Source: Pseudomonadota bacterium (GTDB lineage: Bacteria; Pseudomonadota; Alphaproteobacteria; Caulobacterales; Hyphomonadaceae). Taken from it: a DNA stretch of 64,000 nucleotides. The translations under genes and the position numbers were made by a program. Within the stretch, counting starts at the first letter, position 1, and the number at the start of each line of letters is the position of its first letter. The stretch covers positions 5,631 to 69,630 of the forward strand of contig JBCCMB010000001.1 in assembly GCA_039026555.1 (NCBI GenBank). Reading direction: 5' to 3'. Positions 25,954 to 59,017 of the stretch are shown here, one piece after another. Below the pieces are notes generated by a model, which was not told the origin of the DNA, did not search any database, and was given only the letters and a program-made list of their open reading frames with translations.

Positions 25954-26079
25954 GAGCGTGCTGGCCACACGGAAACCGACATTGTTGTTTCGGTTCGTGG
26001 TGGTGTTCCTGTTGCGGTTCGCCGAGCGAAGGTTCTGCGGATTGTTGTTCCAGGAACCACCGCGGAGAACACGACGCGA
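25954..26079 (-). repeat. DGR template repeat (TR), 126 nt
   Basis: Collinear with the terminal 126 nt of four FGE-domain genes. It is AAY-rich (reads NNNPQNLRSANRNRNTTTNRNNN). By hand alignment, all mismatches to VR1, VR3 and VR4 lie at its adenines. The 3' end (GGCCAGCACGCTCCAC) differs from the VR ends (GGCCAGGACGCTTTRA). Confidence 0.85.
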
Positions 26080-28702: not shown

Positions 28703-29773
28703 TCACCCTAGAATGCGTTTGCCGTACTTTCGTTCGCCTAGAACTGCATTTCGCAGCTTGCGCGTGTGGGCGAAGTTGGCATGAGCCTCCCAGGCCTCGA
28801 TGCGGACGTGAGCGTCAGCCTCTGTCGTGGTTCCGGCGCTCAATTGGTCGCGGAGGCTGCGCAGGCGGTGACGGAAGCGCCGGATAGTCGCCTCGGGCAA
28901 GCGACGTACGCCTTTAGGCGCCAAGACATAGCACAGGAACTCCGCGGGCTCCGCTGTCGGCGCGACCCAAGTCTTCTGCGTATGAAGCTTTAACCGTCGC
29001 CCCTCCAGGAACCGAGCGATCCGATCCCGCCAATCTGCAAGGATTGCAGGATCGTCGTGAAACAATGCGAAATCGTCGACATATCGCACATAGGGCGCGC
29101 GGAGCACTTCAGTACAAAAATGGTCCAGCGGGTCTAGATAGAGATTGGCGAAAAATTGGCTGGTGAGATTTCCGATCGGCAGGCCGCGCCGGCGGGCGAC
29201 TGGCGCGAATAGATCGTCGCCTGGGAAATGTAGCTCCACCAGCTCTTGGCGGTTTGAAGCGTCGATGATGCAGTCCAGTAGGCCGAGCGTGCGCTCGCAT
29301 GCGAGACGCCGACGCAAATCGCGCTTGAGGATGGCGTGGTCGATGGCTGGGAAATAACGAAAGATGTCGCAGCGCAAGACGTAAGCGCAGCGATCACGAT
29401 AGCGCTCATACGCCTCCACCGCCCGGTGTGCGCCCTTGCCCCGCCGGTTGGCGAAGGTGTGAGCGATGAAGCCGCGTTCGAAAATTGGTTCTACGACGGC
29501 GCATACGGCGTGGTGAACCACGCGGTCGCGAAACGGGGCCGCGGAAACGATACGGTGCTTGGGATCGAAAAGTTCGATCTTCACATACCGGCCGGGGCGG
29601 TACTCGCCGCTTAACAGCGCGCGCTCAAGCGCCAAGCATTCCTTCTCTCGATCAGCCAGGAAAGCGGCGGCGCCAGGTTTCGTCTTTTTGCCGAGAGCTG
29701 CGCGGCGCGTCGCCGATACAAGCGCGCTGAAATTAGCGATCTGCGGACAAAGATTACGTTCACGCTTGGGCAT
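28703..29773 (-). CDS. DGR-type reverse transcriptase
   Basis: DPKHRIVSAAPFRDRVVHHAV, RRGLPIGNLTSQFFANLYL (the DGR hallmark I/LGxxxSQ) and YVRYVDDFALF (YxDD). 356 aa. No maturase or endonuclease domain and no intron-like flanks. Confidence 0.9.
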   Translation of the reverse strand: MPKRERNLCPQIANFSALVSATRRAALGKKTKPGAAAFLADREKECLALERALLSGEYRPGRYVKIELFDPKHRIVSAAPFRDRVVHHAVCAVVEPIFERGFIAHTFANRRGKGAHRAVEAYERYRDRCAYVLRCDIFRYFPAIDHAILKRDLRRRLACERTLGLLDCIIDASNRQELVELHFPGDDLFAPVARRRGLPIGNLTSQFFANLYLDPLDHFCTEVLRAPYVRYVDDFALFHDDPAILADWRDRIARFLEGRRLKLHTQKTWVAPTAEPAEFLCYVLAPKGVRRLPEATIRRFRHRLRSLRDQLSAGTTTEADAHVRIEAWEAHANFAHTRKLRNAVLGERKYGKRILG

Positions 29774-44170: not shown

Positions 44171-44339
44171 GAGCTCCCCTCCCAACCTGCTGCTAAACGT
44201 TAACGGACGGTCCCGCATTGCTCAAGCTTTCAGCTGCGACCCGTTCGGTCGCGGGCGGACAGCCTTGTTCGCCCTGGCGCATCCGCTAGGGTTCTGTATT
44301 GTCGCGTGAAGTGTTCAGCGTGTTGGGGACGAACGAAGC

Positions 44340-45704
44340 GTGGGATGGCTTCTTAGAGCTTTGGTCTGGTCTGTGGCGCTTGTTTGCTGCGCAGGGTTGG
44401 TCGGATGGTTTCTCATCGCCGGGCATAAACATGTTGCGGGTCTAGACGGGCCGGGGCGGCAATTAGAGACCGCGGTGATCTCCGCTGATGGTAGATACGT
44501 CGCTATTTTGCTCAATGATGGGGCGGCGGATGTTCAAACGATTGAGGGGGAGACGCTCGGGCTTATTCGCGGGCACGACGCGCCGTTGGCGGCGGCGCAT
44601 TTTTCGCCCGACGGCGAGATACTGATCACGATTGACGACGCGGGCAGTGTCCGCCGAACGCGGCTGGAGGGGCTCTTTTTTCGAGAAAGGGGGCATGGCG
44701 CCGATATGTCGGCGGCGGTCGAGCAGGCGGTTTGGGGCGATGCGTTGGCCGCACCGGCGGCGCTATTATGGGAGACAAGCGCGATCCATGCGCCCTGGAA
44801 GGCGTCGTCGCAGATTATGGATGCAGACACGCGCGCGCCTGTTTTGCCAAAGGGCGCAGTCCCGCCGCCGAGGAGCATGTTTCGAGATTGCGCAGATTGC
44901 CCGGAAATGCTGGTTGTTCCGCCGGGCGCATTCCTTATGGGCTCTCCTGAAGATGAAGAGGGGCGTGATCCCGATGAGGGCCCGCAGCGAGACGTGCGGA
45001 TCGATTATCCTTTCGCCGCGGCGCGGTTTGAGACGACGCTCGCGGAGTTTCAACGCTTCATGAAAGAGACTGGCCATGCGCCGGCGGGCGGGTGCGTCGC
45101 CGATTCCAACGGCGATGGGTTGTTGTCCGATGAGCCTGAGGCTAATTGGTCAAACACGGGGTTTGAACAAAGCGACGCCCAGCCCGCAGCCTGCGTTTCG
45201 TGGAACGACGCGCAGGCCTATGTGCATTGGCTGTCGCGCAAAACGGGCGAGACGTATCGTCTGCTTTCGGAAGCGGAATGGGAGTATGCGGCTCGGGCTG
45301 GGACGACGAGCGCCTATTTCTGGGGCTCAAGCGCAGATGCCGGCTGCGCTTATATGAACGGAGCGGACGCGACGGCGAAGCGCTCCTATCCTGGCTGGAC
45401 GACCGTGAGTTGCGATGACGGCTATTTGAATACGTCGCCCGTAGGCTCGTTCAACGCGAATGCATTTGGTCTTTACGACATGACGGGCAATGTTTCGGAG
45501 TGGACTGAGGATTGCTGGAATGAGAGCTATTCCGGTGCGCCGATAAATGGCTCGGCGTGGATAAGCGGCGAGTGCTCGCGTCGTGTTCTCCGCGGTGGTT
45601 CCTGGAGCGGCTATCCGCGGAGCCTTCGCTCGGCGCTCCGCGGCTGGAACTCCACCTCGGACCGGTACGACCATGTCGGTTTCCGTGTGGCCAGGACGCT
45701 TTAA
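44340..45704 (+). CDS. N-terminal TM anchor - short WD40-like segment - FGE-sulfatase (C-type lectin fold) protein; DGR target 3
   Basis: GTG start. TM segment LVWSVALVCCAGLVGWFLIAG. The FGE domain has MLVVPPGAFLMGS, VSWNDAQAYVHWLSRKTGETYRLLSEAEWEYAARAG, GLYDMTGNVSEW and RVLRGGSW. Confidence 0.8.
   Translation: MGWLLRALVWSVALVCCAGLVGWFLIAGHKHVAGLDGPGRQLETAVISADGRYVAILLNDGAADVQTIEGETLGLIRGHDAPLAAAHFSPDGEILITIDDAGSVRRTRLEGLFFRERGHGADMSAAVEQAVWGDALAAPAALLWETSAIHAPWKASSQIMDADTRAPVLPKGAVPPPRSMFRDCADCPEMLVVPPGAFLMGSPEDEEGRDPDEGPQRDVRIDYPFAAARFETTLAEFQRFMKETGHAPAGGCVADSNGDGLLSDEPEANWSNTGFEQSDAQPAACVSWNDAQAYVHWLSRKTGETYRLLSEAEWEYAARAGTTSAYFWGSSADAGCAYMNGADATAKRSYPGWTTVSCDDGYLNTSPVGSFNANAFGLYDMTGNVSEWTEDCWNESYSGAPINGSAWISGECSRRVLRGGSWSGYPRSLRSALRGWNSTSDRYDHVGFRVARTL
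45576..45701 (+). repeat. DGR variable repeat VR3
   Basis: I count 18 mismatches to the TR, all at TR adenines. It is on the opposite strand and ~19.5 kb from the TR. Confidence 0.85.
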
Positions 45705-45723: not shown

Positions 45724-45770
45724 GCGGGCGAGAGCCCGCGTCTTGTACCGGCGAAGCCGGTTCGGTTTTC
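45724..45770 (+). terminator. Post-VR3 module: GNRA-loop hairpin plus terminator-like hairpin
   Basis: GCGGGC-GAGA-GCCCGC (45724-45739), then ACCGGCGAAGCCGGT (45747-45761) followed by TCGGTTTTCG. Nearly identical to the module after VR1. Confidence 0.6.
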
Positions 45771-45965
45771 GATCCTCGGACACACACAGCTGAATGGATC
45801 GAAGCGCTTGATCTATTGAAATATTTTGAGATGCGGTTGGGTGTCCCCAGGCGATATCAAACATGGATTATCTCATTTTTTAATTTCAAGGCCGCCGGAA
45901 CGGAGGGCTAGCGTCCAGAGCACGCCGTGTGTAACGTGAAGTTGCGGGGAATGTGGAGCTAGGAC

Positions 45966-47306
45966 GTGTCTTCGGGGACAAGACAACATCAATTTGTTTT
46001 TGTCAGTCATGCGCGGACAGACAAACCCAAAATCAAGGCGATCGTAGACGCCCTTATTTCTGGCGACGATCCAATAAAGGTCTGGCTCGATAACCCATCT
46101 GTCATGGGCTATTCCCAAGCCGAAATCGAAGCATCTTTTATCGATTTGCACGGCGGCGGTCGCTGGGACGACCAAATCAATGATGCGCTGGAAGCCTCCA
46201 TGTGCGTTTTAGCGTGCGCCTCGCACAGCTTCACTAAGCGCTATCATGACGATACGGACAGCAAGAAGGGCAGCGTTATCCGCAAAGAGGTCACGGCCGG
46301 CGAGACGGGCGATAAGCTGGTCTCGTGTCGTATCGACGATCTTCCGTTCGGGAATCTGCCGGGCGCGCTGTCGGAGGCGCAGACGGTCGATTTGCATGAG
46401 ACGCCGGACAAGCTGTCCGCCTTGGTGCGCGATGTCCGCCGAAAGATTAAGACGGTCAATGAGCGCAAGGAAGCCGGCGGATTGCGCAGCGACGCAAAAC
46501 TTTATCTCGTCGACCGCACGCCGCAGGAAAACGCGGCGAAGAAAAGTATTGAAGCTGCAAGCGACGGCGGCGTCCACGCGCTGTTCGTAAAGGCGCCGCA
46601 AAATGAATGCCTAGATCTTTTTCAAGAGCGCCTGCGCGAGGAGACCAGTCGGATTAGCAACCATACCAGATGCGTTTGGCAGGAATTGCACGTGGAGTGG
46701 CCGTCGCTGGCCGCCTCGCGAGATGAGTTTGCAGACGCCTATTTGAGCAATTTGGCGAGCAAACTGGGTGCGCGCGTGTCCGACTTGACTGCAAACCTCT
46801 CCAAGCCTCGCCAGGCGCCGCTGGCGGCTGTTTCCTTCATGAGTATGAGCGAGTGGGGACGGAGCCGGTTGCAAAAGGATCGGTTGCGCGAGTGGCTGGC
46901 CTTATGGCGGCGATTGCAGGAGGATACACGCGAGCTAAAGGCGGTGCCGGTGCTCGCTGTCGAGTTGCCGGAAGCGGCGCCCAAATGGAAAACCACGCCC
47001 AAAGTCAGCGACGGAGGCGTGTCCTCCCTACAGATTTTGAGAGACGTGCGTGCGGTTGAGAAAGAAGCGAAGCGCTCTGACGATTATGTGCCCCTGCGCC
47101 GATTGGACACGCTCCATCCTGTAACGCACCCGGACGCCGTTCGATGGCTGAAACAATGCGGGTACAGCGAATCGAGCAAGCAATGGGACGAGTTGCGGTC
47201 GGCAATTGACGGCGCCTTCGCGCAGGGCCGCAAGCGGCTGAAGCGCATCGCTATGCTGACATTTAAAAGGCGTATGGACGCACTCGTTCGTGATGGGACG
47301 ATATAG
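45966..47306 (+). CDS. TIR-like domain protein with an uncharacterised ~300-aa C-terminal region
   Basis: GTG start. QHQFVFVSHARTDKPKIKAIVDAL...VWLD...CVLACASHSF fits a TIR/TIR_2 N-terminal domain. I recognise no P-loop or other motif in the rest. Confidence 0.6.
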   Translation: MSSGTRQHQFVFVSHARTDKPKIKAIVDALISGDDPIKVWLDNPSVMGYSQAEIEASFIDLHGGGRWDDQINDALEASMCVLACASHSFTKRYHDDTDSKKGSVIRKEVTAGETGDKLVSCRIDDLPFGNLPGALSEAQTVDLHETPDKLSALVRDVRRKIKTVNERKEAGGLRSDAKLYLVDRTPQENAAKKSIEAASDGGVHALFVKAPQNECLDLFQERLREETSRISNHTRCVWQELHVEWPSLAASRDEFADAYLSNLASKLGARVSDLTANLSKPRQAPLAAVSFMSMSEWGRSRLQKDRLREWLALWRRLQEDTRELKAVPVLAVELPEAAPKWKTTPKVSDGGVSSLQILRDVRAVEKEAKRSDDYVPLRRLDTLHPVTHPDAVRWLKQCGYSESSKQWDELRSAIDGAFAQGRKRLKRIAMLTFKRRMDALVRDGTI

Positions 47307-47314
47307 GGGACACA

Positions 47315-48388
47315 ATGATGACCGAACAACGCGCCGCTTATCCCTATTTCAAGCGAGGCATTGCGGGGTATGAGCAGGAGCCCGCGCCGCGAGCGGAAGA
47401 GGCGCGCCCTTATGATCGCAGAAAAGCGGAAGCGTCCGCCGACTATATCCCCCATGAGGATTTGTCTCACGCCGTCAATGTCGCCTTGGCGCTCGGCATG
47501 CCGCTCTTGCTCACCGGCGATCCCGGGACCGGCAAGACCCAACTCGCTTACGCCGTAGCGCATGACCTTCAATGCCCGGTTCACAAATTTGAAACCAAGT
47601 CGACGAGCGCCGCGAAGGATTTGTTCTACACCTATGACGCGCTAACCGCGTTCAAGATTAAGGAGGCGGCCGATCCGCGTCAGTTCATTCGCTACCAAGC
47701 GTTGGGCCGCGCCATATTAGAGGCGTTTCCCTCAAACCATCCCGCCGTCGAAAAGCTATTGCCTCCAGCGGGATCGCCCAACCACACGCATCCAGGGCGA
47801 CCGCGTCGCGCGGTCGTACTCATCGACGAGATCGACAAAGCGCCGCGGGATTTTCCCAATGACTTGCTCAACGAAATAGACCGTCTGCACTTCCGAGTGC
47901 CGGAGCTTCAAAATATCGGGTCCCCCGGAGCGGACGCCGCCGAACGAGGTGAAGACGAAAGCGAGCAAGGCGTGTCGCCGGAATTTCGGCCCATCGTCAT
48001 CCTAACGTCGAACTCCGAAAAGGGATTGCCCGATCCGTTCCTACGCCGCTGCGTTTACTATGACATTCCCTTCCCGGAAGGCGATCAGATGGCGAAAATC
48101 GTAGCGGCGCGCGTGAAAGGCGTGGACGCCGGCGACCCCATGCTCGCGGATGCGCTGGATCTCTTTTATTCGCTGCGCCACGACAAAGGGCTGACCAAGC
48201 TGGCCAAAGAGCCGTCGACGGCCGAATTGCTGAATTGGCTGCATTTGCTGCTTCATCGCGGCGTTGCTGGGGGTAAGTCCCTTAAGACCCAGCCGGATCT
48301 GGTGAAGCAGACAATCTCCACGCTCGTGAAGAATTCGCGCGATCGGGAAGAGGCGATCGCTTTTGTCGATAATTGGAAAGCCGGCTGA
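47315..48388 (+). CDS. MoxR-like AAA+ ATPase
   Basis: PLLLTGDPGTGKTQLAYAVA (Walker A), AVVLIDEIDKAPRDFPNDLLNEID (Walker B and the MoxR-typical stretch) and ILTSN (sensor 1). Confidence 0.85.
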   Translation: MMTEQRAAYPYFKRGIAGYEQEPAPRAEEARPYDRRKAEASADYIPHEDLSHAVNVALALGMPLLLTGDPGTGKTQLAYAVAHDLQCPVHKFETKSTSAAKDLFYTYDALTAFKIKEAADPRQFIRYQALGRAILEAFPSNHPAVEKLLPPAGSPNHTHPGRPRRAVVLIDEIDKAPRDFPNDLLNEIDRLHFRVPELQNIGSPGADAAERGEDESEQGVSPEFRPIVILTSNSEKGLPDPFLRRCVYYDIPFPEGDQMAKIVAARVKGVDAGDPMLADALDLFYSLRHDKGLTKLAKEPSTAELLNWLHLLLHRGVAGGKSLKTQPDLVKQTISTLVKNSRDREEAIAFVDNWKAG

Positions 48389-48412
48389 ACGGGGTAGGGC
48401 GGGATTTGCGCC

Positions 48413-51400
48413 ATGGCCGATGGAGCATCAGCAGCAGAGTTCGAGGACGAAGAGGTCGCGCGCCTTTTGGGCGACGAGCTGGAGCGGCTTTTTGATCGCC
48501 TAGACGAGGCGGGGCTTTTGGTGGGGCCGCGTGAGCGGTCGGCGGCTTACGCCATCGCGTTTCAATGGCTTGGCGGAACGCGCGCGCCGCCCGCCCGCGC
48601 ATCTGAGGCGATGTGGCGGCTTCGCCCGATGCTGGCGCCCGTTCTCGCCCGAACGCAAAATGATCGGGCAGTTTTCTTCCATGTGTTCGACACAAATTAC
48701 GAACCTCAGCCTATTAACCCGCCCGATGAGCCGGACCCACCCTTAAAGGGTTGGCCTTGGCGGCGGATCGTGCTGGGTATCGCGGCCACGATCATGCTCA
48801 GCGGATTGGCAAGCGTTGTCTATCATCGAACTCAGAATGAGGCCGACGTGGTCGTCGTCGAGGACGGCCCAAGCGGCGTCGCCAAAATCGAGCCAATTCA
48901 GACGGATGGCGATGCGCCGGTCGCGACTGAGAGGAGAGCCGCGCCATTGGCGGACCAAACGGCGAATGATTTTCTCAACCGCATTCGCGATGCCGCAACG
49001 GCAATCGATGGCGACGTCTACAGGTACGGCCTTGCTCCCACGCTGGAGGAAGTCGCCAAGGAGCTGATCGACGACTCCAGGTCGTTGCGAAACGCGACGC
49101 CGGCGGATGGTGGAGGCGTCGCGCTATCGTCTCAAACGACTATTTTAGCCGGCGGCGTATTAAGTGGCGCGGCGTTCTCAAATGATGAAACACGCATCCT
49201 CTCATGGAGCTCGGACAACACCGTCAGACTCTGGGACGCGCAGACCGGAGACCAGATCGGGCCGTCCATGCAACATAACTTCATCGTCCGGGGCGCGGTG
49301 TTCTCAAAGGATGACACACGCATCCTCTCATGGAGTGTGGACAACACCGTCAGGCTCTGGGACGCACAGACCGGAGACCAGATCGGACCGTCCATGCAGC
49401 ATGAGGACGCCGTCGGGGGCGCGGCGTTCTCAAATGATGAAACACGCATCCTCTCATGGAGCGACGACGCCACTGTCAGGCTTTGGAACGCACAGACCGG
49501 AAACCAGATCGGGACACTTATGGGACATGGACGCGACGTCTATGGCGCGGCGTTCTCAAAGGATGAGACGCGCATCCTCTCATGGAGCCGGGACGCCACC
49601 GTCAGGCTCTGGGACGCGCAGACCGGAGACCAGATCGGACCGTCCCTGCAACACGAGCACGTCGTCCTGGGCGCGGCGTTTTCAAAAGATGAGACACGCA
49701 TCCTCTCATGGAGCGACGACGCCACCGTGCGGCTTTGGGACGCCAACACAGGCGATCAGATCGGACGGCCAATGGTACATAAGGGCAGGGTATCTGGCGC
49801 AGCGCTCTCAAAGGACGAAAGCCGCATTCTGACTTGGAGTGAAGATGGAAGGATAAGCTCTTGGAGCGACCCGGGGGCCTCTTTAGACGCGGAGTGGAGC
49901 GCCGACGCCTATGCGCGCCGGCTGAGCGACCTTACCGGCTTGCCGGGCGGGGCGCCGTTATCGATTTTTGCGAACAATGGCGCGCTCTGGGCGCGCCTGG
50001 CCCATGCGCTGTCGCGGATGGAGCAGCCGGGTCGAGAGACGTCCTTGTCCCAACTTCGCGCCGACGCTGCCAAATCTCTGGAGGACGTCCAACCCTCGCG
50101 CGTAGATCGGATCGCCGAAAAGCTGCGCGCCCTAGACGCCCCGCCGACGGATCGCGCCGCGCTCTTTGACGCCGTTTTCGCCCTCGATGAAGCAGCCGCG
50201 TCCGATGCGCCCAGCATAGATCAAAACATCGGTTTTGGTCCGGCCTCCGACGTGCTGCGCGCCGCCGCGATCGCCGGCTTGGATGCGGCGCGATATGGCG
50301 ATCCGCCGTGGCTGAACCTTAAGCCGCCGGCGCGTCCGGCCGCTTCGCCCGCGCCGGCCTGGCTGTGGCCTCTTTCTGTTTTGATACCGCTGGCGTTCGC
50401 GTTTTGGGTGGCGTCGTCGCTCGCTTTGAAGCGCGCCTATCTTCGCCGCCGCGCGCCGCGCGTCCCGCCGCTTCATACCAAATTCGTCAGCGAGGCCGGC
50501 CGGAACGTCGCCTATCAAGCGGGTCTCTTCCAGCGCGCCGCGCAGCAATTGCTCACGCGAACGCCCCGCGCCAGCGCCGCAATCGACATTCCTGCGACGG
50601 TCTCGGCGACGCTTGCGGAAGGCGGCGAGATTATCGCGCCGGTTTTTAAGGATGCGCGTCTGCGTCCCGAATATCTGGTGCTGATTGAAGCGAACGCCGC
50701 CGGCGACCAGGAGGCGCGCCGGTTGAGGCGGATGGCCGAGCGTCTAGAGGACATCGTCGATTTAGACGTCTTTTACTATCAGACCGATCCTGGCGAGTTG
50801 GAGAGTGAGGACGGCGCGAACCGCATCACAATTGAACAAGCCCAGTCGCGCTATCCGGACCATCGATTGATCATTCTCGGGACGGGCGGAGGCTTTCTTG
50901 ATGCCGTGGATTTGTCTCTTCGTCCCCCAGCGCAGAAGCTTTTCTATTGGGAGCGGCGCGCGCTGCTGACGCCTATTCCTCTCGCGGAGTGGAGCAAAGA
51001 GGATTACGCGCTGGCCAAAGCGCTAGAGATGCCCATCGGGCGTGCGACGCCTGAGGGTCTGCTCACGCTCGCCGAACTGCTCGGGTTAGAAGGCGCTGAA
51101 GCTGGGACCGAACCCAACCCGAGCGGAGACGGCTTGGCGCGCCCGCTGCCGGACTTGTTTCGCAATCGCTCGCAGCGCTTTTTGTTCAACGCGCCGCCCG
51201 ACCAAGCAACAATAGCCGATCTTCTACGTGAATTGCGCAATTATCTAGATCCGTCGGCGTTCGATTGGTTCGCGTCATTAGCGGTTTATCCGAATGTTCA
51301 ATGGGATTTGACGCTGCTTCTGGGAGTCAAGCTGCCCCGTGCGCCGGGAGAGGACTTTGCCACTAATCCGCTTTATGATGAACGTCGGCTGGCCGCGATC

Positions 51401-54400
51401 ACGCAGTTGCCTTGGCTGCGGTCGGGCCGCATGCCCAACTGGCTCAGACGCACTTTAATTAGCAAGCTGTCGCCCGAGCGGCGCGAGGAGATCAAGGCCG
51501 TTCTGGACGAGCTGCTTGAAAATGCGCGACCTAAGAACAAACACGAAGTCGACGCGATCGAACTCAGTATCCGTCGCGATAAGCCTAAAGACACAACACG
51601 AACTGACCGTTTGCTAGACGACGAAGTCCTGCTCGACTTTCTCGCCTCCGGCCAACGAGAGGATTTTGCGTTGGCGCGGTTCTCACGGTTCGCTGAATTG
51701 TTCGATCGCGGGTTTTGGGATCGGATAGGCGGGCCCGAAGGCGTTGCGGGCGCAGCAGCGCTAGCCTTCTCATTGACCGCGTTTGTCGTTACCCCGCGCG
51801 CCGCAGACGGCGCTGTTGTGACCGGTGCTTATGCGCCGCTATGGCTTTTGGGCGTCGGGGGGCTGCTGGTCTTTGCATTCTGGAAGCCCGACATTGCGGC
51901 GGCTCGTCTCGGCGCCGCGTTCGAGCGCGCCGCGCCTGGCGCTTTGGCTTTGTTCTTGGCGACGCTGGGCCCGCTCGCGGCGGCGTACGTCAGCGCTCGA
52001 TCAGGTGTAGATCCGCTGTCTATAGTCGCGACGTCGAATACCACGTCATTTTGGATCTGGGGCGCGTATATCGCTCAATTTGGTCTTCTCGTCGGCGGGC
52101 TTTGGGTCTCACGTTCGATCTGCACGCGCTTTGGCCTTCGCATCTACGTCGCTGCATCGCTGCCTGATTGGGCCGAGTTGTCGATCAAAGCTGCGGGGCT
52201 GGGCGCGTTCGCTTTGGCGATAACAGCGCTCGCCGGAAATGTTCCCGGCCTAGCCGAGTTTTCGCGCTCGCCACTTGTTGACCCAGACCAATTGGACGCG
52301 TCGGCGATGCTTTGGCTCGGCGGTTGTCTCGCCGTATTTTTGTTGGGCTGGCTGGCTGCGCAGTTCGCGCCGGATATGCAGACGATCCGGGCGGCGAGCG
52401 CCGGCCGCAGCGCAAAGCCCGCACTATTCGCGATTGTCGCACGCGCCCTCGCCGCACTTGTTCCCGTTGTAGCGTCATTGGCGGCCTATTGGCATGTGTC
52501 CTTGACCTCGTCGCGATCAGACCTCGCTATGGATGAGACGGTTTTCCGACCCGCTCTGACCGCAATATCGCCGGACGGCGAGACGCTCGCAGCGGTCGAC
52601 ATCGCCGGGCGGCTTGTCGTTTCGCATGCCAACGCCGCCGCGCCTTACCGCGCCGACCCGACGCAATTGAGCGACGCGCGCGCGCCGTTCACGGCGTTGG
52701 CGGTTGGCGGCGAAGGTGAAGCCGTCATCGCTTTCGCAGATGCAGACGGACGAGTCTTTGAGGCGACGCCGTATCGCGACGCCGTCGCGCCCGTCGTTGA
52801 TCCGTCGGAAAATTCCGGTCGGGCGCGTAGCGACGGCGCGCCGGCCCAACTCGCGTTCGGCCCCAACGCGCAACTCTGGACGGCGATAGAGACAGCGGAA
52901 GTCGGTGTTCGCGTTATCACCGCAGGCCGAGCTTGGAACGACGCGGAGCAGAGCGGCCCGCCACAAGCACTTATTGCTGTGAGTGGAGGCCGAGCGGCCT
53001 TAGCGACACTGGACGGCCGTATTCGTTTGGTGACGCCCACAAGCGACGGTCTCGCCGTTCAGCTGATTGGCGCCAGCGGGTCTCTCGCGCCGTCGCGTCA
53101 GCTCAGTTTCGATCCGGACACGATGACACTTCGCGCTGGTCTGATCGATGGCGAGATATGGGAAGCAAATTTGGTCGACAGCGGCGCTTCGTTCGAATTT
53201 GTAGGCCGCGCCAACGCCATGGCGCTCGGGCCGGCGCCTCTCTACACGACATCTTCTGAGATCTCACCATTTGTTGGGCCCGCCACGCCCTCGGGCAGGC
53301 GGCTCGCGCTTGTAATTGGAAACGCCGAGTACGAGCAATTACCAGACCTGAAGAATCCCTTGAACGATGCGCGCCTCATTTCTGAGTCGTTGGAAAGTTT
53401 AGGTTTCGAAGTATCCCGGCTACAAAACGCGTCGCGCAACGAAATGCTTCAAGCGGTGCGTCAACATGCTCAGAATGTCGCGGCCGCCGGGCGTAATTCT
53501 GTGAGTTTTGTTTATTTTGGGGGACAAGGCGTTGAGATAGACGGTCAAAACTATTTGATTCCAACTGACTTGAGTGCGCACGAGCCAGCCACCGTCCGAA
53601 GCGATTCACTACTTCTCAATGATGTAATAAGTGAAATCGATACGGTCGGGCCAGCGGCTAGCCTTTTCGTACTGGATACCTGCCGAAACGATCCATTTTC
53701 TGGCCAACGCGGATCAATCGGCCAAGGTTTTGCTCCCGCGAACGCGCCGACAAACACCTTCATCGCCTTTGCGGTCGAACCAGGAGGGATAGCGCTCGAC
53801 AGTTTGGATGCGAGGGACAATAACAGTCCTTACACCTCGACGTTGGCGGAGACCTTGCTTATTCCGGGGTTATCTGTGCAGGATGCGTTTGCCGAGGTTC
53901 GCCGCAAGGTGACGGCTGCGACATCAGGCGAACAAGTGCCATGGATATCGGACCGTTTAGCGAGCGAATTTTGTTTCGCTGGCTGCGAGGTGCAAACGCC
54001 CGAGCCGGCCGCCATCCCCTCGGCGCTCCCACCTCGCCTCTATATCCAGATCGCTTCAGAGGCGCAGCGCGAAGACGCGTTACGTGTTCGCGAGGCGTTG
54101 TCGCCGCTCGACGTAGACGTGCCGGAGTTTGAGGTGCGTAGCGCGAGCATGCCGGACCGGGGGGAGTTTCGCTATTTCCGGCGCTCGGAAGAGGGGCTGG
54201 CGCGTGAAACGTACAACGCGCTGCCGGATCTCGACGCCGGCGGTGCCGCCTTTGTCTACGTGTCCGGCTATGAGGACTCCGAGGACATCCGAGACAATCA
54301 TTTCGAGCTTTGGCTGCCCGGTCCTACGATGTTGGAGGACGATTTCCAGCCGGGTTTCGAGTTTCGCGATGTGATTGAGGGCGCGCCGGAGATCGCGACA

Positions 54401-55135
54401 CCCGAGATGGTCGTGATTCCGTCGGGTCGGTTCCTGATGGGTTCGCCGGCGTCTGAGGCCGCGCGCGACGATGATGAAGGCCCGGTTCGGACGGTTCGGA
54501 TCGATTATCAGTTTGCGGTCGGCAAGTATGAAGTGACCTGGGCGGAATGGGAGGCGTGCGTCGCCGACGGCGCGTGCGATGACGCCGGTCCGGTCGGCGC
54601 AGACGGGGATGAAGGCTGGGGGCGCGGGTCGCGTCCTGTGATCAATGTGGATTGGAACGATGCGCAGGCCTATGTGCGCTGGCTGTCGCGCAAAACGGGC
54701 AAGACGTATCGTCTGCTGTCTGAAGCGGAATGGGAGTATGCGGCTCGCGGGGTGACGACCACAGAAGCCGTCTCGACGCGTTTCAGCTGGGGAGACGAGG
54801 ATCCGGTTTGCGAACGCGGCGCGCCGAACGGGGCGGTGTTTAGTCGATGCGAAGGCGGGGGAACGCGGCCCGTTGGGTTTTCGGCTCCGAACGCCTTTGG
54901 TCTTTACGATATGCACGGCAATGTTTGGGAATGGGTGGAGGATTGCTGGAATGACAGCTATTCTGGCGCGCCATCGAACGGCTCAGCTTGGACGCGCGGC
55001 GGATGTTCGCGTCGTGTTCTCCGCGGTGGTTCCTGGGGCAACGATCCGCAGCTCCTTCGCTCGGCGGACCGCCTCAGGAGCACCACCGCGAACCGACTCG
55101 ACTATGTCGGTTTCCGTGTGGCCAGGACGCTTTAA
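48413..55135 (+). CDS. Giant 2240-aa multidomain protein: N-terminal domain - TM - WD40 repeats - TM - large unassigned region - ~7 TM helices - propeller-like region - caspase-like (C14) domain - FGE-sulfatase domain; DGR target 4
   Basis: Six 42-aa WD40 repeats (TRILSWSxDxTVRLWDAQTGDQIG). Hydrophobic helices at about aa 115, 650 and 1130-1400. Caspase-like RRLALVIGNAEYEQLPDLKNPLNDA...VYFGGQG...NYLIPTD...FVLDTCRND. The FGE domain has MVVIPSGRFLMGS...RVLRGGSW. Confidence 0.85.
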   Translation: MADGASAAEFEDEEVARLLGDELERLFDRLDEAGLLVGPRERSAAYAIAFQWLGGTRAPPARASEAMWRLRPMLAPVLARTQNDRAVFFHVFDTNYEPQPINPPDEPDPPLKGWPWRRIVLGIAATIMLSGLASVVYHRTQNEADVVVVEDGPSGVAKIEPIQTDGDAPVATERRAAPLADQTANDFLNRIRDAATAIDGDVYRYGLAPTLEEVAKELIDDSRSLRNATPADGGGVALSSQTTILAGGVLSGAAFSNDETRILSWSSDNTVRLWDAQTGDQIGPSMQHNFIVRGAVFSKDDTRILSWSVDNTVRLWDAQTGDQIGPSMQHEDAVGGAAFSNDETRILSWSDDATVRLWNAQTGNQIGTLMGHGRDVYGAAFSKDETRILSWSRDATVRLWDAQTGDQIGPSLQHEHVVLGAAFSKDETRILSWSDDATVRLWDANTGDQIGRPMVHKGRVSGAALSKDESRILTWSEDGRISSWSDPGASLDAEWSADAYARRLSDLTGLPGGAPLSIFANNGALWARLAHALSRMEQPGRETSLSQLRADAAKSLEDVQPSRVDRIAEKLRALDAPPTDRAALFDAVFALDEAAASDAPSIDQNIGFGPASDVLRAAAIAGLDAARYGDPPWLNLKPPARPAASPAPAWLWPLSVLIPLAFAFWVASSLALKRAYLRRRAPRVPPLHTKFVSEAGRNVAYQAGLFQRAAQQLLTRTPRASAAIDIPATVSATLAEGGEIIAPVFKDARLRPEYLVLIEANAAGDQEARRLRRMAERLEDIVDLDVFYYQTDPGELESEDGANRITIEQAQSRYPDHRLIILGTGGGFLDAVDLSLRPPAQKLFYWERRALLTPIPLAEWSKEDYALAKALEMPIGRATPEGLLTLAELLGLEGAEAGTEPNPSGDGLARPLPDLFRNRSQRFLFNAPPDQATIADLLRELRNYLDPSAFDWFASLAVYPNVQWDLTLLLGVKLPRAPGEDFATNPLYDERRLAAITQLPWLRSGRMPNWLRRTLISKLSPERREEIKAVLDELLENARPKNKHEVDAIELSIRRDKPKDTTRTDRLLDDEVLLDFLASGQREDFALARFSRFAELFDRGFWDRIGGPEGVAGAAALAFSLTAFVVTPRAADGAVVTGAYAPLWLLGVGGLLVFAFWKPDIAAARLGAAFERAAPGALALFLATLGPLAAAYVSARSGVDPLSIVATSNTTSFWIWGAYIAQFGLLVGGLWVSRSICTRFGLRIYVAASLPDWAELSIKAAGLGAFALAITALAGNVPGLAEFSRSPLVDPDQLDASAMLWLGGCLAVFLLGWLAAQFAPDMQTIRAASAGRSAKPALFAIVARALAALVPVVASLAAYWHVSLTSSRSDLAMDETVFRPALTAISPDGETLAAVDIAGRLVVSHANAAAPYRADPTQLSDARAPFTALAVGGEGEAVIAFADADGRVFEATPYRDAVAPVVDPSENSGRARSDGAPAQLAFGPNAQLWTAIETAEVGVRVITAGRAWNDAEQSGPPQALIAVSGGRAALATLDGRIRLVTPTSDGLAVQLIGASGSLAPSRQLSFDPDTMTLRAGLIDGEIWEANLVDSGASFEFVGRANAMALGPAPLYTTSSEISPFVGPATPSGRRLALVIGNAEYEQLPDLKNPLNDARLISESLESLGFEVSRLQNASRNEMLQAVRQHAQNVAAAGRNSVSFVYFGGQGVEIDGQNYLIPTDLSAHEPATVRSDSLLLNDVISEIDTVGPAASLFVLDTCRNDPFSGQRGSIGQGFAPANAPTNTFIAFAVEPGGIALDSLDARDNNSPYTSTLAETLLIPGLSVQDAFAEVRRKVTAATSGEQVPWISDRLASEFCFAGCEVQTPEPAAIPSALPPRLYIQIASEAQREDALRVREALSPLDVDVPEFEVRSASMPDRGEFRYFRRSEEGLARETYNALPDLDAGGAAFVYVSGYEDSEDIRDNHFELWLPGPTMLEDDFQPGFEFRDVIEGAPEIATPEMVVIPSGRFLMGSPASEAARDDDEGPVRTVRIDYQFAVGKYEVTWAEWEACVADGACDDAGPVGADGDEGWGRGSRPVINVDWNDAQAYVRWLSRKTGKTYRLLSEAEWEYAARGVTTTEAVSTRFSWGDEDPVCERGAPNGAVFSRCEGGGTRPVGFSAPNAFGLYDMHGNVWEWVEDCWNDSYSGAPSNGSAWTRGGCSRRVLRGGSWGNDPQLLRSADRLRSTTANRLDYVGFRVARTL
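49150..49900 (+). repeat. Tandem 126-bp in-frame repeats encoding WD40 blades
   Basis: Period 126 nt (units start at 49166, 49292, 49418 and so on). Units 1 and 3 share an identical 45-nt string, GGCGCGGCGTTCTCAAATGATGAAACACGCATCCTCTCATGGAGC. The sixth unit is degenerate. Confidence 0.85.
55007..55132 (+). repeat. DGR variable repeat VR4
   Basis: I count 14 mismatches to the TR, all at TR adenines. It is on the opposite strand and ~29 kb from the TR. Confidence 0.85.
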
Positions 55136-55156
55136 CCCTCTTTTCCTTATGGCTTA

Positions 55157-55206
55157 GCCGCGCAAGCGGCGGGGCTAGAACTCGCGAAGCGGGTCAAGAT
55201 TTTTTT
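55157..55206 (+). terminator. Post-VR4 module: GNRA-loop hairpin plus rho-independent terminator
   Basis: GCCGC-GCAA-GCGGC (55157-55170), then ACTCGC-GAA-GCGGGT (55180-55194) followed by CAAGATTTTTTT. Confidence 0.55.
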
Positions 55207-55249
55207 GGGTGCGTTTTGGCTTCTGGCTCAGTCTGCAATGCCGCCGATT

Positions 55250-55560
55250 GTTTTGAAAAAGTCTGACTGCGACGCCTGCGCTCTCAAGTCGAAATACCGC
55301 TCGGACCTGCCGGTGCGCCGCGTCCTGCGCTCGTTGCACAAAGATGCTCGCGACATCGCCGGACGGAACACGGCGTCTGACGCCTACCTGGTCTCTACGC
55401 GGGAGCGGAATAAAGTGGAGATGCCGTTCGCCCACCTTAAACGCATCCAAAAGTTCGATCGTTTGCGCCTTAGCGGACCAAACGGTGCCAAGGACGAGTT
55501 CTTCCTCGCCGCAACCGCCCAAAACCTCTGAAAACTTGGGAAGCTGTCTATCCGCAGCGT
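55250..55560 (+). pseudogene. C-terminal remnant of an IS5/IS1182-family transposase
   Basis: RERNKVEMPFAHLKRIQKFDRLRLSGPNGAKDEFFLAATAQNL matches the conserved C-terminus of this family. No N-terminal part is present. A TGA sits where the family continues with RKLAK. Confidence 0.65.
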
Positions 55561-55783
55561 CATCCCAGAACCCGCCTGAGGCATGGGGAGCCGATCAGCC
55601 GAAATCAGAGGCGCGGAGAAACCGCCTCGGCAGCCGGTTTTTTCAACACTATCGGCCTGAAGCAGTACTAGTGACAGCTATAGATCATAATCCCGCCATT
55701 CGATGTCTTTCAACGACTGTCCGGTTTCGGCATTTTGAGATGCTCGCGTATAGCGTTTACTGACGGCCATTGGCCCCTCGCGG

Positions 55784-58675: not shown

Positions 58676-59017
58676 CCAATCTCCCCCAAGTCCGAAATGC
58701 ACGCCAGTCCATTGCATTGGGAGACTAAACACCGATAGCAGATATCGTCCACACGGGACGGTCGTGAACGGCGGGAGCGCGCGTGCGGGAGGGCCGCGCT
58801 GTGTCCGCTCCGCGATTAATCACGGCCGGCGCCGAGGCATCGTCTCAGACGCCTGTTCCGTTGTTCGATGTCCCTCAACGTCACCCAAAGGGCTATGACG
58901 CGACTGGACTGGTCTCGAATTACCTGAATTAAAACAATTTTGACCCGCTTCTTGATCTGGCCGGCGCCGCCTCTCACCCGCACGCTTGCGCTCGTTAGAT
59001 TTAAGGAGCGCCTAGGC

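What the first reader, a model, noticed from the sequence alone, without database searches (positions are those of the whole stretch)
49150..49900. Near-identical 126-bp WD40 repeats whose differences cluster at a few codons: a second, recombination-based variability mechanism?
Six tandem 42-codon units have very high nucleotide identity; units 1 and 3 share an identical 45-nt run. The framework TRILSWSxDxTVRLWDAQTGDQIGPxxxH is conserved. The differences concentrate in the five residues after the His (NFIVR / EDAVG / GRDVY / EHVVL / KGRVS) and the x of SWSxD (S/V/D/R/D/E). In WD40 propellers these positions line the top binding face. The pattern resembles the concerted evolution plus localised diversification described for WD repeats of fungal STAND (NWD/HET-E type) proteins. 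The same protein may therefore carry two hypervariable sensors, one DGR-driven and one driven by repeat recombination.
Basis: partly seen in the sequence, partly recalled or inferred. Interest (0 to 1): 0.65.

Follow-up and report, generated by a model that had tools for sequence, protein, structure and literature searches.

The report
Repetitive WD40 sensor in DGR-targeted protein
A giant bacterial membrane protein carries a run of unusually similar WD40 repeats that differ mainly at their predicted binding-surface residues; this pattern is already known from bacterial and fungal immune-like proteins, and here it reflects slow evolutionary turnover, not a second fast mutation system beside the retroelement that rewrites the protein's tail.

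Summary
The repeat array is real. It has five good 126-nt units (49166-49795) and a degenerate sixth, inside a 2240-aa ORF (48413-55135). "Near-identical" overstates it: units 1-5 are 74-87% identical in DNA, with synonymous divergence of 0.17-0.5 per site.

At positions with the same amino acid, units 1-5 use the same codon 74% of the time against 37% expected. The similarity is therefore at the DNA level, not only selection on the protein.

Differences concentrate at unit codons 16, 18, 38-40 and 42. Codons 16, 40 and 42 are the D-1, R1-2 and R1 top-face hotspots of WD40 blades. Amino-acid change there outruns synonymous change about fourfold. The same positions vary in 36 related bacterial proteins.

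The same ORF's C-terminus is a genuine DGR variable region.

Active recombination in this array is not shown. Recombination tests are non-significant and no strain-level relatives were found. In an ortholog pair, 16 DGR-region residues changed while the WD40 array stayed identical. Across orthologs, however, arrays vary from 0 to 9 units, and in one pair the array is replaced exactly between conserved flanks.

Verdict: a new member of the known "highly repetitive / highly internally conserved" WD40 class. The context is interesting; the interest is modest.

The parts
48413..55135 (+). Host ORF of 2240 aa. Order of parts: N-terminal domain, TM1, WD40 array, helical region, TM2, conserved central domain, multi-TM region, beta-rich region, caspase domain, FGE/C-type-lectin domain ending in the DGR variable region.
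   Evidence: ORF list and translation; Pfam hits; hydropathy scan.
49166..49795 (+). Five highly similar 126-nt (42-codon) WD40 units, starting at 49166, 49292, 49418, 49544 and 49670.
   Evidence: Tandem Repeats Finder score 744. Pairwise identity 74-87% DNA and 67-81% protein. Same-codon use 74% against 37% expected. The Asp-His-Ser-Trp tetrad residues (D17, H37, S15, W23) are invariant.
49796..49900 (+). Sixth, degenerate terminal WD40 unit (GAALSKDESRILTWSEDGRISSWSDPG...). It corresponds to the last unit of the ortholog arrays.
   Evidence: 45-49% DNA identity to units 1-5 and codon sharing at background. Modelled as a four-stranded blade. The downstream motif ...RLxxLTGLP is shared with orthologs.
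48767..48823 (+). Predicted transmembrane segment 1 (aa 119-137), upstream of the array.
   Evidence: Kyte-Doolittle 19-residue window, score 2.13.
50372..50428 (+). Predicted transmembrane segment 2 (aa 654-672), followed by a conserved polybasic stretch (KRAYLRRRAPR). By the positive-inside rule this places the WD40 array outside the cytoplasm (inference).
   Evidence: Hydropathy 2.09, with 6 K/R in the next 15 residues. R32-R34 are invariant in orthologs.
53297..53971 (+). Caspase-like peptidase C14 domain (aa 1629-1853).
   Evidence: Pfam PF00656, E = 4.9e-34; PADLOC caspase model.
54398..55126 (+). FGE-sulfatase / C-type-lectin-fold domain (aa 1996-2238).
   Evidence: Pfam PF03781, E = 1e-55.
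55007..55130 (+). DGR variable region at the 3' end of the host ORF.
   Evidence: Aligned to the template repeat; 14 of 15 mismatches fall at template adenines on the coding strand.
25956..26079 (-). DGR template repeat. It serves four variable regions: 26269-26392, 30924-31047, 45576-45699 and 55007-55130.
   Evidence: Repeat families and alignment. Mismatches at template A are 15/16, 16/23, 18/19 and 14/15.
28703..29773 (-). DGR reverse transcriptase.
   Evidence: Pfam RVT_1, E = 2.1e-14.
47315..48388 (+). AAA+ ATPase (AAA_5 type) immediately upstream of the host ORF.
   Evidence: Pfam.
45966..47306 (+). TIR + inactive-STAND (iSTAND) protein.
   Evidence: Pfam TIR_2 and PF19995 (29.7 bits, cutoff 24).
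44340..45704 (+). Short FGE/C-type-lectin DGR target (454 aa), with its variable region at 45576-45699.
   Evidence: Pfam; alignment to the template repeat.

Best explanation
The array encodes a WD40 beta-propeller module of the 'highly repetitive / highly internally conserved' kind. It sits between two transmembrane segments of a giant protein that belongs to a DGR-associated conflict (immunity-like) locus.

Each 42-residue unit is one four-stranded blade with an almost invariant scaffold that includes the Asp-His-Ser-Trp tetrad. The blades differ mainly at the residues that form the top, ligand-binding face: D-1 and D+1 in the B-C turn, and the D-A loop with R1-2 and R1. Together the blades therefore present a composite recognition surface specific to this protein.

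The pattern arises on evolutionary time scales. Units are duplicated or homogenised at the DNA level by unequal recombination or gene conversion among 126-bp units, and sometimes a whole array is replaced. Selection then favours amino-acid differences at the surface codons. It is not a programmed hypermutation device. The fast, targeted diversifier of this protein is the DGR acting on the C-terminal lectin-fold domain.

Shown: the array, its DNA-level relatedness, the positions and excess of amino-acid change, the family-wide recurrence, the DGR variable region, and array turnover among orthologs.

Inferred: the ligand-binding role, the extracytoplasmic location, and recombination as the process that produced the similarity.
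For: - The array and its units are established.
- DNA-level relatedness goes beyond protein constraint. Same-codon use at identical residues is 74% (84% for units 1-4) against 37% expected, while the edge unit 6 is at background.
- The framework is under purifying selection (pN 0.02-0.12, omega about 0.26). The six surface codons have pN 0.60-0.75 against pS 0.17-0.18 in unit pairs 1/2/4 (Fisher p = 4e-4 to 7e-3).
- Blade anatomy comes from the AlphaFold2 model (pLDDT 89): strands at unit positions 41-4, 10-15, 19-24 and 30-36. This puts codons 16-18 in the B-C turn and codons 37-40 in the D-A loop.
- Codons 16, 40 and 42 match the D-1, R1-2 and R1 top-face hotspots (PMC3419727).
- In 36 other bacterial proteins with internally similar arrays, within-protein entropy peaks at the same positions: 16, 42, 40, 39, 18 and 38 (Spearman 0.79 with the window).
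- The Hyphomonas ortholog L002 has an independently homogenised array of 44-aa units (66-89% DNA identity). Its variable positions are equivalent, with pN 0.60 at the surface codons against pS 0.26.
- Unit number among orthologs is 0, about 2-3, 6, 7, 8 or 9.
- Between L012 and L002, DNA identity is 86.7% up to 58 nt before the array. There is no alignment across the array, and identity resumes at 88.3% from 24 nt after it (protein-level mosaic).
- The DGR is the fast process. P0002 and L012 are identical over 2,291 residues, including nine WD40 units, and differ at 16 residues, all in the variable region.
- Literature: Hu 2017, Dyrka 2020, Podospora HNWD.
Against: - Only six units are present, where seven or eight blades are usual. 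Whether they close into a ring is unresolved. The model was built on an alignment of six-unit sub-windows taken from longer arrays, and it superposes best on 8-bladed propellers.
- The six 'hypervariable' codons were partly chosen from the window itself, and the pairwise tests are not independent. With five units, statistical power is low.
- Selection for diversity and gene conversion that spares the surface codons cannot be told apart.
- No ligand, expression or topology data exist.
- The window's units resemble units of nSTAND1-WD40 proteins (72-83% at framework positions) more than those of its own orthologs. This could mean the array was acquired from a paralog rather than amplified in place.
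Confidence: 0.75

Rival explanations
1. One reading: the array is an actively recombining, population-level hypervariable sensor, like the fungal het-e/het-d loci. Unit number and unit order would change frequently, giving the protein a second fast diversification system beside the DGR.
For: - 126-bp units with exact runs of 32-45 nt are substrates for RecA-mediated or slipped recombination.
- 43 of 120 informative site pairs are phylogenetically incompatible.
- There is family-level evidence of cassette replacement.
- nSTAND1-WD40 alleles with 96-99% identical N-termini show a one-unit indel and replacement of the first propeller.
- A k=31 assembly of a public run breaks exactly at the first repeated 31-mer, so variation could be hidden in short-read data.
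Against: - Synonymous divergence among units is 0.17-0.5, so there has been no recent homogenisation.
- The PHI-like test gives p = 0.93 and the run test p = 0.06.
- The only near-identical ortholog pair shows zero change in the WD40 array while the DGR variable region changed at 16 residues. That array is only about 50% internally identical, however, so it is a weaker substrate.
- No strain variants of this gene could be retrieved.
Confidence: 0.2
2. Plain recent tandem duplication followed by neutral drift. On this reading the variable codons are simply the least constrained loop residues, there is no selection for diversity, and the array has no sensor role.
For: - The variable positions are in loops.
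- The array has only six units and could be a shrinking remnant.
- Hu et al. interpret high internal identity mainly as evolutionary youth.
Against: - Neutral sites should change no faster than synonymous sites. Here pN at the six codons is about 3.5-4.4 times pS in the three closest unit pairs.
- The same positions are hypervariable in 36 other proteins and in ortholog L002, and they coincide with experimentally defined binding hotspots.
- The framework has omega of about 0.26 and an intact tetrad, which argues for a functional fold.
Confidence: 0.12
3. An assembly artefact: collapsed or chimeric repeats that make the array look shorter or more uniform than it really is.
For: - Repeats of this kind are misassembled from Illumina data in Podospora.
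- A k=31 contig from SRR22824308 ends at window position 49195, exactly at the first repeated 31-mer.
Against: - Only 19 31-mers are repeated inside the array, and the longest exact run is 45 nt. Any assembler using k above 45, or reads of 100-150 nt, resolves it.
- The reading frame is intact through 2240 codons.
- The units are all distinct.
Confidence: 0.03
4. Targeted mutagenesis of the WD40 codons by the DGR or another templated system.
For: A DGR with four targets is present in the window.
Against: - No copy of the WD40 unit exists outside the array to serve as a template.
- Differences among units involve all bases and whole codons, not adenine-specific changes.
Confidence: 0.02

Closest known systems
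Prokaryotic 'Highly-Repetitive' WD40 proteins (Hu et al. 2017, Sci Rep, PMC5587647; crystal structure 2ymu of a highly repetitive propeller)
   Same: - A bacterial WD40 array with high internal identity (mean 0.75 over units 1-5).
- An intact DHSW tetrad in every good unit.
- Diversity confined to the predicted top-face hotspot sites.
- 2ymu is among the best structural matches, at 37% identity.
   Different: - There are only 5 good units plus 1 degenerate one, against typically 14 or more units forming two propellers.
- If unit 6 is included, mean identity falls to about 0.6.
- The array is placed near the N-terminus between two transmembrane segments of a protein that lacks a STAND NTPase.
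Fungal HNWD / HET-E, HET-D, NWD WD40 repeats with high internal conservation (Paoletti 2007 and Chevanne 2010, as cited in Dyrka 2020 and PMC12222747)
   Same: - 42-residue WD40 units with a conserved framework.
- A handful of hypervariable codons on the interaction surface with an excess of amino-acid change.
- Repeat number differs among relatives.
- The context is immunity or cell death (TIR, caspase).
   Different: - Fungal units are over 80-100% identical and change repeat number among alleles and even in laboratory strains. Here identity is 74-87% with clear synonymous divergence, and no allelic data exist.
- The fungal arrays are the C-terminal sensors of NACHT NTPases. Here no NTPase is in the same polypeptide.
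- The organisms are bacteria, with no meiosis.
DGR-diversified C-type-lectin sensors of bacterial conflict systems (Kaur et al. 2020, eLife, PMC7159879; Doré et al. 2024, PNAS, PMC10907252)
   Same: - The locus layout matches: an AAA+ ATPase directly upstream of a long target with a C-terminal lectin-fold variable region, a short lectin-only target, and TIR, iSTAND, trypsin and caspase components.
- There are multiple variable regions per template repeat, some of them remote.
   Different: - The papers read do not describe a target that also carries an internally homogenised WD40 array. In Doré et al., WD40 appears only on a neighbouring peptidase.
- The vWA domain expected in the third component of the ternary systems is not confirmed here.

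Membership tests
WD40 repeat beta-propeller | Units of about 40-44 residues with the GH...WD signature, matching the Pfam WD40 models | tested here: met
   PF00400 at 73.5 bits (cutoff 27), plus many propeller models. H37 and W23-D24 are conserved.
WD40 repeat beta-propeller | Asp-His-Ser/Thr-Trp hydrogen-bond tetrad and four-stranded blades | tested here: met
   D17, H37, S15 and W23 are invariant in units 1-5. The AlphaFold2 model has four strands per unit, pLDDT 89. Foldseek hits are all WD40 propellers.
WD40 repeat beta-propeller | Closed ring of (usually) seven or eight blades | tested here: inconclusive
   Only six units are present. The model derives from an alignment of six-unit sub-windows and fits 8-bladed propellers best (rmsd 2.7 Å).
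Highly-Repetitive WD40 (Hu et al. 2017) | Internal repeat identity of at least 0.7 | tested here: inconclusive
   Mean protein identity is 0.75 over units 1-5. It falls to about 0.6 if the degenerate sixth unit (31-33% identity) is counted.
Highly-Repetitive WD40 (Hu et al. 2017) | Diversity concentrated at the predicted top-face hotspot sites | tested here: met
   The most variable codons are 42 (R1), 16 (D-1) and 40 (R1-2).
Fungal-type high-internal-conservation NLR repeats (HNWD) | Units over 80-100% identical, maintained by concerted evolution | tested here: inconclusive
   DNA identity is 74-87%. Codon sharing is well above expectation, but pS is 0.17-0.5 and there is no significant recombination signal.
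Fungal-type high-internal-conservation NLR repeats (HNWD) | A few codons under diversifying selection on the interaction surface | tested here: met
   pN 0.60-0.75 against pS 0.17-0.18, Fisher p = 4e-4 to 7e-3 for unit pairs 1/2/4. The approach is a counting method, not a codon model.
Fungal-type high-internal-conservation NLR repeats (HNWD) | Repeat array is the sensor of a NACHT/STAND NTPase in the same polypeptide | tested here: not met
   No NTPase domain is in the 2240-aa protein. An AAA+ ATPase and a TIR-iSTAND protein are separate upstream genes.
Fungal-type high-internal-conservation NLR repeats (HNWD) | Repeat-number polymorphism among alleles of one species | not testable with these tools
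   No strain-level relatives were found in the plasmid, genome or metagenome collections. The one matching public contig stops at the array. Among distant orthologs the unit number does vary.
DGR target protein | Variable region paired with a template repeat, with mismatches at template adenines | tested here: met
   14 of 15 mismatches between 55007-55130 and template 25956-26079 are at template A. The same holds for the three other variable regions.
DGR target protein | Reverse transcriptase in the same element; variable region at the C-terminus of a C-type-lectin/FGE fold | tested here: met
   RVT_1 protein at 28703-29773. FGE-sulfatase domain at aa 1996-2238, ending at the stop codon. The accessory Avd protein was not looked for.
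iSTAND ternary conflict system (Kaur et al. 2020) | MoxR-like AAA+ ATPase plus an iSTAND protein with an N-terminal effector | tested here: met
   AAA_5/AAA hits at 47315-48388. TIR_2 plus iSTAND (PF19995, above cutoff) at 45966-47306. Assignment to the MoxR clade itself was not tested.
iSTAND ternary conflict system (Kaur et al. 2020) | Third component contains a vWA domain | tested here: inconclusive
   Only a sub-threshold VWA_CoxE hit (E = 0.061, 13.2 bits against cutoff 26.4) in the conserved central region. A profile search of PDB sequences gave nothing meaningful.

The most novel reading that the evidence does not exclude
One membrane-spanning conflict-system protein combines two recognition modules that diversify by different means and at different tempos, possibly on opposite sides of the membrane.
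- The first is an extracytoplasmic WD40 propeller. Its blades would be reshuffled, re-amplified or swapped as a cassette, perhaps with the many nSTAND1-WD40 paralogs as donors.
- The second is a C-terminal lectin-fold domain rewritten by a DGR.

If the WD40 array also turns over within populations, this would be a bacterial counterpart of fungal het-e-type repeat instability, coupled to retroelement hypermutation in a single receptor.
Probability: 0.2. Interest if true: 0.65.

Novelty: new member of a known kind. Interest (0 to 1): 0.4.

Why it matters
Internally homogenised WD40 arrays with variable top-face residues are thought to be fast-evolving recognition surfaces of fungal NLRs and, by analogy, bacterial ones. 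In bacteria this remains an inference.

This locus offers a built-in comparison. The same polypeptide carries a DGR-mutagenised lectin domain, whose diversification rate can be measured from reads. The tempo of repeat-based change can therefore be compared directly with that of retroelement-based change.

The ortholog data already suggest two tempos. DGR changes appear between otherwise identical proteins. WD40 arrays are replaced as cassettes between lineages whose flanks differ by about 12% in DNA.

The finding does not reveal a new mechanism. The WD40 pattern itself is documented in the literature.

Tried and rejected
- **Close relatives for strain comparison.** Megablast of 47000-56000 against plasmids found no match. 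The exact-protein look-up of the host ORF found nothing on record. Single-protein scans of genome and metagenome contigs found nothing. Profile scans found only distant orthologs, 45-66% identical in the central domain.
- **Neighbour-gene look-up.** Exact look-up of the neighbouring AAA and TIR-iSTAND proteins found one public short-read contig identical to the window. It ends at 49195, the first repeated 31-mer, so it says nothing about array variation.
- **Recombination tests inside the array.** A PHI-like incompatibility test and a GENECONV-like run test were both non-significant. I therefore do not use the 45-nt run as evidence of gene conversion.
- **DGR action on the WD40 units.** Rejected. 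No unit copy exists outside the array, and the changes are not adenine-specific.
- **Identifying the conserved central domain.** Pfam gave only a sub-threshold VWA_CoxE hit, a PDB profile search gave nothing, and PADLOC named no system.
- **Ring closure of six blades.** This could not be judged because model coordinates are not exposed and the alignment came from longer arrays.
- **Neighbouring TIR-WD40 protein (55784-58732).** Checked for the same repeat type. Its repeats are degenerate and unrelated at the unit level.
Full report
**1. What is at the coordinates**

Tandem Repeats Finder reports one array at 49166-49766, with period 126, 4.8 copies, 81% matches and score 744. It is the only long-period tandem repeat in the whole 64-kb window.

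The array lies in frame inside a 2240-codon ORF at 48413-55135 on the + strand. Pfam calls residues ~252-490 WD40, residues 1629-1853 a caspase (Peptidase_C14) domain, and residues 1996-2238 an FGE-sulfatase (C-type-lectin fold) domain.

In frame, the units start at 49166, 49292, 49418, 49544, 49670 and 49796.
- Framework: GAAFSKDETRILSWSxDxTVRLWDAQTGDQIGPSMQH.
- After the His: NFIVR / EDAVG / GRDVY / EHVVL / KGRVS.
- At the x of SWSxD: S/V/D/R/D/E.

**2. How similar the units are**

| Comparison | DNA identity | Protein identity |
|---|---|---|
| Units 1-5, pairwise | 74-87% | 67-81% |
| Unit 6 against units 1-5 | 45-49% | 31-33% |

There are therefore five good units plus a degenerate terminal one, and "near-identical" is too strong. 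The 45-nt identical run between units 1 and 3 is real.

Nei-Gojobori counting gives a synonymous difference of 0.17-0.18 among units 1, 2 and 4. It rises to 0.27-0.38 for pairs with unit 3 and to 0.50-0.52 for pairs with unit 5.

The similarity is nevertheless a DNA-level property. At positions where two units have the same amino acid, they use the same codon in 74% of cases (84% among units 1-4). Local codon usage predicts 37%. Unit 6 sits at background, 43% against 36% expected.

Recent common ancestry or homogenisation of units 1-5 is therefore shown, with the edge unit left out. An edge unit left out is what unequal exchange would produce, but the pattern is also compatible with a simple internal amplification.

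**3. Where the differences are**

Per-codon diversity peaks at unit codons 42, 16, 40, 38, 39 and 18. There is secondary variation at codons 33, 34 and 36, carried by units 3 and 5.

| Codon set | pN | pS | omega |
|---|---|---|---|
| 36 framework codons (one search set) | 0.09 | 0.35 | 0.26 |
| Six variable codons (16, 38-42), all unit pairs | 0.63 | 0.36 | about 1.7 |
| Six variable codons (16, 18, 38-40, 42), closest unit pairs (1/2, 1/4, 2/4) | 0.60-0.75 | 0.17-0.18 | about 3.5-4.4 |

For the three closest pairs, Fisher p is 4e-4 to 7e-3. The first two rows use the set chosen. The third uses the family-defined set.

The codon set was partly chosen on this sequence, so I checked it independently. 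An HMM of the unit found 1,341 ungapped units in 115 of the 120 best database homologs. In 36 proteins with at least 8 units and mean internal identity of at least 0.65, within-protein entropy peaks at positions 42 (2.24 bits), 16 (2.23), 40 (2.14), 39, 18 and 38. Every framework position is at about 1 bit or below. The profile correlates with the window's at Spearman 0.79.

**4. Mapping onto the fold**

An AlphaFold2 model of residues 226-512 was built with an alignment of six-unit sub-windows from homologs. It has mean pLDDT 89 and pTM 0.84, and shows six four-stranded blades.

| Element | Unit positions |
|---|---|
| Strand A | 41-42 of the preceding unit, then 1-4 |
| Strand B | 10-15 |
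| Strand C | 19-24 |
| Strand D | 30-36 |
| B-C turn | 16-18 |
| D-A loop | 37-40 |

In WD40 propellers the B-C and D-A connections form the top face. Wu et al. 2012 define three hotspot positions from sequence: D-1 (before the tetrad Asp), R1, and R1-2 at the start of strand A (PMC3419727). In this unit they are codons 16, 42 and 40, the three most variable codons. The A-B and C-D loops, on the bottom face, are conserved.

The tool does not expose coordinates, so this mapping rests on the model's secondary structure plus established WD40 topology.

Foldseek matches are all WD40 propellers. They include 2ymu, "a highly repetitive propeller structure" (37% identity), and the Thermomonospora PkwA WD40 domain.

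Whether six blades close into a ring is unresolved. The model superposes best on 8-bladed propellers (rmsd 2.7 Å). That may merely reflect the alignment I supplied.

**5. The rest of the protein and locus**

The C-terminal 124 nt of the ORF (55007-55130) is a DGR variable region. Aligned to a non-coding template repeat at 25956-26079, 14 of its 15 mismatches are at template adenines on the coding strand.

Three other FGE-domain C-termini behave the same way: 26269-26392, 30924-31047 and 45576-45699. Their mismatches at template A are 15/16, 16/23 and 18/19. A reverse transcriptase lies at 28703-29773.

Genes around the host ORF:
- a short lectin-only target (44340-45704)
- a TIR-iSTAND protein (45966-47306)
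- an AAA+ ATPase directly upstream (47315-48388)
- a TIR-WD40 protein with ordinary degenerate repeats (55784-58732)
- a trypsin-like protein (40773-42641)
- TIR-nSTAND1-FGE and TIR-FGE targets

This layout matches the DGR-associated conflict systems described by Kaur et al. 2020 and Doré et al. 2024. The vWA domain expected in the third component of the "ternary" systems is not confirmed here. The only hit is VWA_CoxE at E = 0.061, below the cutoff. PADLOC names no system.

A hydropathy scan places transmembrane segments at residues 119-137 and 654-672, on either side of the array. The second is followed by six K/R in 15 residues, and the RRR is invariant in orthologs. By the positive-inside rule, the WD40 module is predicted to face the periplasm and the conserved central domain the cytoplasm. 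This is an inference from a crude method.

**6. Is there a recombination-based variability mechanism?**

Inside the array there is no significant signal.
- 43 of 120 informative site pairs are incompatible, but the incompatibilities are not spatially structured (PHI-like p = 0.93).
- The longest concordant run is not exceptional (p = 0.06).

No strain-level relatives could be found. An independent public short-read contig (Logan, SRR22824308) is 100% identical to window 45735-49195. It stops exactly at the first 31-mer that recurs within the array. This shows why short-k assemblies cannot report on the array. It also shows that the window's array is resolvable with longer k: only 19 31-mers are repeated, and the longest exact run is 45 nt.

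**7. What relatives show**

Ten genome loci and two metagenome loci encode orthologs of the conserved central domain. All the named ones are Alphaproteobacteria: Hyphomonas, Hyphomonadaceae, Rhizomicrobium, Filomicrobium, Rhodomicrobiaceae and Micropepsaceae.

| Protein or locus | N-terminal WD40 module |
|---|---|
| L004-L008 | absent |
| L003, L009 | WD-like repeats near the C-terminus instead |
| L010 | about 2-3 units |
| Window | 6 units |
| L001 = L011 (closest relative, 66% central identity) | 7 units of an ordinary FSPDG...TGS type |
| L002, P0005 | 8 units |
| P0002, P0004 | 9 units |

L002 carries eight 44-residue units that are 66-89% identical in DNA, with variation at the equivalent positions. 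This is an independent homogenised array of a different unit type. Its pN is 0.60 at the surface codons, against pS 0.26.

Three close orthologs (P0002, P0005, L002) are 94-100% identical in the central domain and 96-100% in the first 50 residues. Across the array they are only 40-58% identical, with different unit types and numbers.

At the DNA level, L012 and L002 align at 86.7% up to 58 nt before the array. They do not align across it, and they resume at 88.3% from 24 nt after it. The array has therefore been replaced as a cassette.

A similar pattern appears in nSTAND1-WD40 proteins whose N-termini are 96-99% identical. One propeller is replaced, and there is a one-unit (42-aa) indel.

Conversely, P0002 and L012 come from different sequence collections (an ENA record and a JGI metagenome contig). 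They are identical at 2,315 of 2,331 residues. All 16 differences lie in the DGR variable region (aa 2292-2320), and none lies in the nine WD40 units.

The DGR is therefore the fast process. WD40 arrays change on a slower scale, between lineages. The caveat is that P0002's units are only about 50% identical to each other, so that array is a poorer recombination substrate than the window's.

**8. Origin of this array**

All five good units have their nearest neighbour, at framework positions, within the same protein (78-94% identity). The best outside matches (72-83%) are units of TIR- or trypsin-nSTAND1-WD40 proteins, not units of the orthologs.

Two histories fit this. The array may have been amplified or homogenised in place after the split from the orthologs. 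Alternatively, it may have been acquired from an NLR-like paralog and then diverged.

**9. Comparison with what is known**

- Hu et al. 2017 catalogued prokaryotic WD40 proteins. They found that many have high internal identity, defined "Highly-Repetitive" as at least 0.7, and noted that the predicted hotspot sites remain diverse in them.
- Dyrka et al. 2020 pointed out that bacterial NLRs share with fungal NLRs WD and TPR repeats of 80-90% internal identity. They suggested an analogous regime of rapid diversification.
- In Podospora, HNWD repeats are over 80-100% identical, with four codons under diversifying selection and frequent repeat gain, loss and shuffling.

The window's array fits this class at its less homogeneous end. 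It fails one defining feature of the fungal family: the array is not the sensor of a STAND NTPase in the same polypeptide.

In the papers I read I found no description of a DGR target that also carries such an array. This is absence from a limited search, not proof of novelty.

**10. Verdict**

The array is a bona fide, internally homogenised WD40 module. Its blade-to-blade differences sit on the binding face and show an excess of amino-acid change.

The pattern is a known one. Recombination as a current, DGR-like "mechanism" in this gene is not demonstrated. The family-level cassette turnover and the two-tempo contrast with the DGR are the most useful by-products of the analysis.

- Interest: 0.4.
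- Novelty: new member of a known kind.

Noticed in passing
window 25956-26079 (template), 26269-26392, 30924-31047, 45576-45699, 55007-55130; RT 28703-29773: One DGR template repeat serves four variable regions on both strands. Two of them are 19.5 and 29 kb from the template. All four are in FGE/lectin C-termini of conflict-type proteins: TIR-FGE, TIR-nSTAND1-FGE, a short lectin-only protein and the 2240-aa protein.
   Followed up: partly
P0002 vs L012:3706-10710: Two 2331-aa orthologs from different sequence collections (an ENA record and a JGI metagenome contig) are identical except for 16 residues. All 16 lie within the DGR variable region (aa 2292-2320). This is a natural demonstration of DGR activity with everything else, including nine WD40 units, unchanged.
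   Followed up: yes
L012:4396-5601 vs L002:5465-6601: Between two Hyphomonas-like orthologs, DNA homology (87-88%) is interrupted exactly across the WD40 array. One has nine 42-aa units. The other has eight highly similar 44-aa units. This indicates cassette-like replacement.
   Followed up: yes
window 48767-48823 and 50372-50428: The WD40 array is bracketed by two predicted transmembrane helices, and the second is followed by a conserved polybasic stretch. This predicts an extracytoplasmic WD40 propeller, which would be unusual for this fold in bacteria.
   Followed up: partly
window 49166-49900: Only six WD40 units are present, against 7-9 in orthologs. Whether six blades form a closed propeller, need a partner, or represent a shrunken array is unresolved.
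   Followed up: partly
L013 (= window 45735-49195): A public short-read (k=31) contig from SRR22824308 is 100% identical to the window and ends exactly at the first 31-mer that recurs inside the array. The same strain is present in that run, and short-k assemblies fragment at this array.
   Followed up: yes
window 23610-25613, 58940-61036, 61428-62516: A relaxase (DUF3363/MobA-like), a TraG/VirD4-type coupling protein and a VirB11-like ATPase flank the roughly 33-kb DGR/conflict island. The island therefore probably rides on a conjugative element or plasmid. No match was found in the plasmid collection for 47000-56000.
   Followed up: partly
window 55784-58732 (-): A 982-aa TIR protein with a long C-terminal region of degenerate WD40-like repeats sits directly downstream and convergent. 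Its repeats show no unit-level similarity to the homogenised array.
   Followed up: yes
P0019, P0022, P0041 (nSTAND1-WD40 proteins): These proteins have 96-99% identical N-terminal halves but differ in their arrays. The first propeller is replaced wholesale between P0019 and P0022, and P0041 has one extra 42-aa unit. This is evidence of array-level exchange in the wider protein class.
   Followed up: partly
window 50349-51740 (aa 646-1109 of the host ORF): The most conserved part of the protein family (59-66% identity to distant orthologs, 94-100% among close ones) matches no Pfam or PDB family. The only hit is a sub-threshold VWA_CoxE match. It may be the vWA-like partner of the upstream AAA+ ATPase.
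   Followed up: partly
window 36450-37178, 40773-42641, 42776-44218: A LuxR-type autoinducer-binding regulator, a trypsin-like peptidase protein and a protein with a peptidoglycan-binding domain lie between the two halves of the DGR target set.
   Followed up: no
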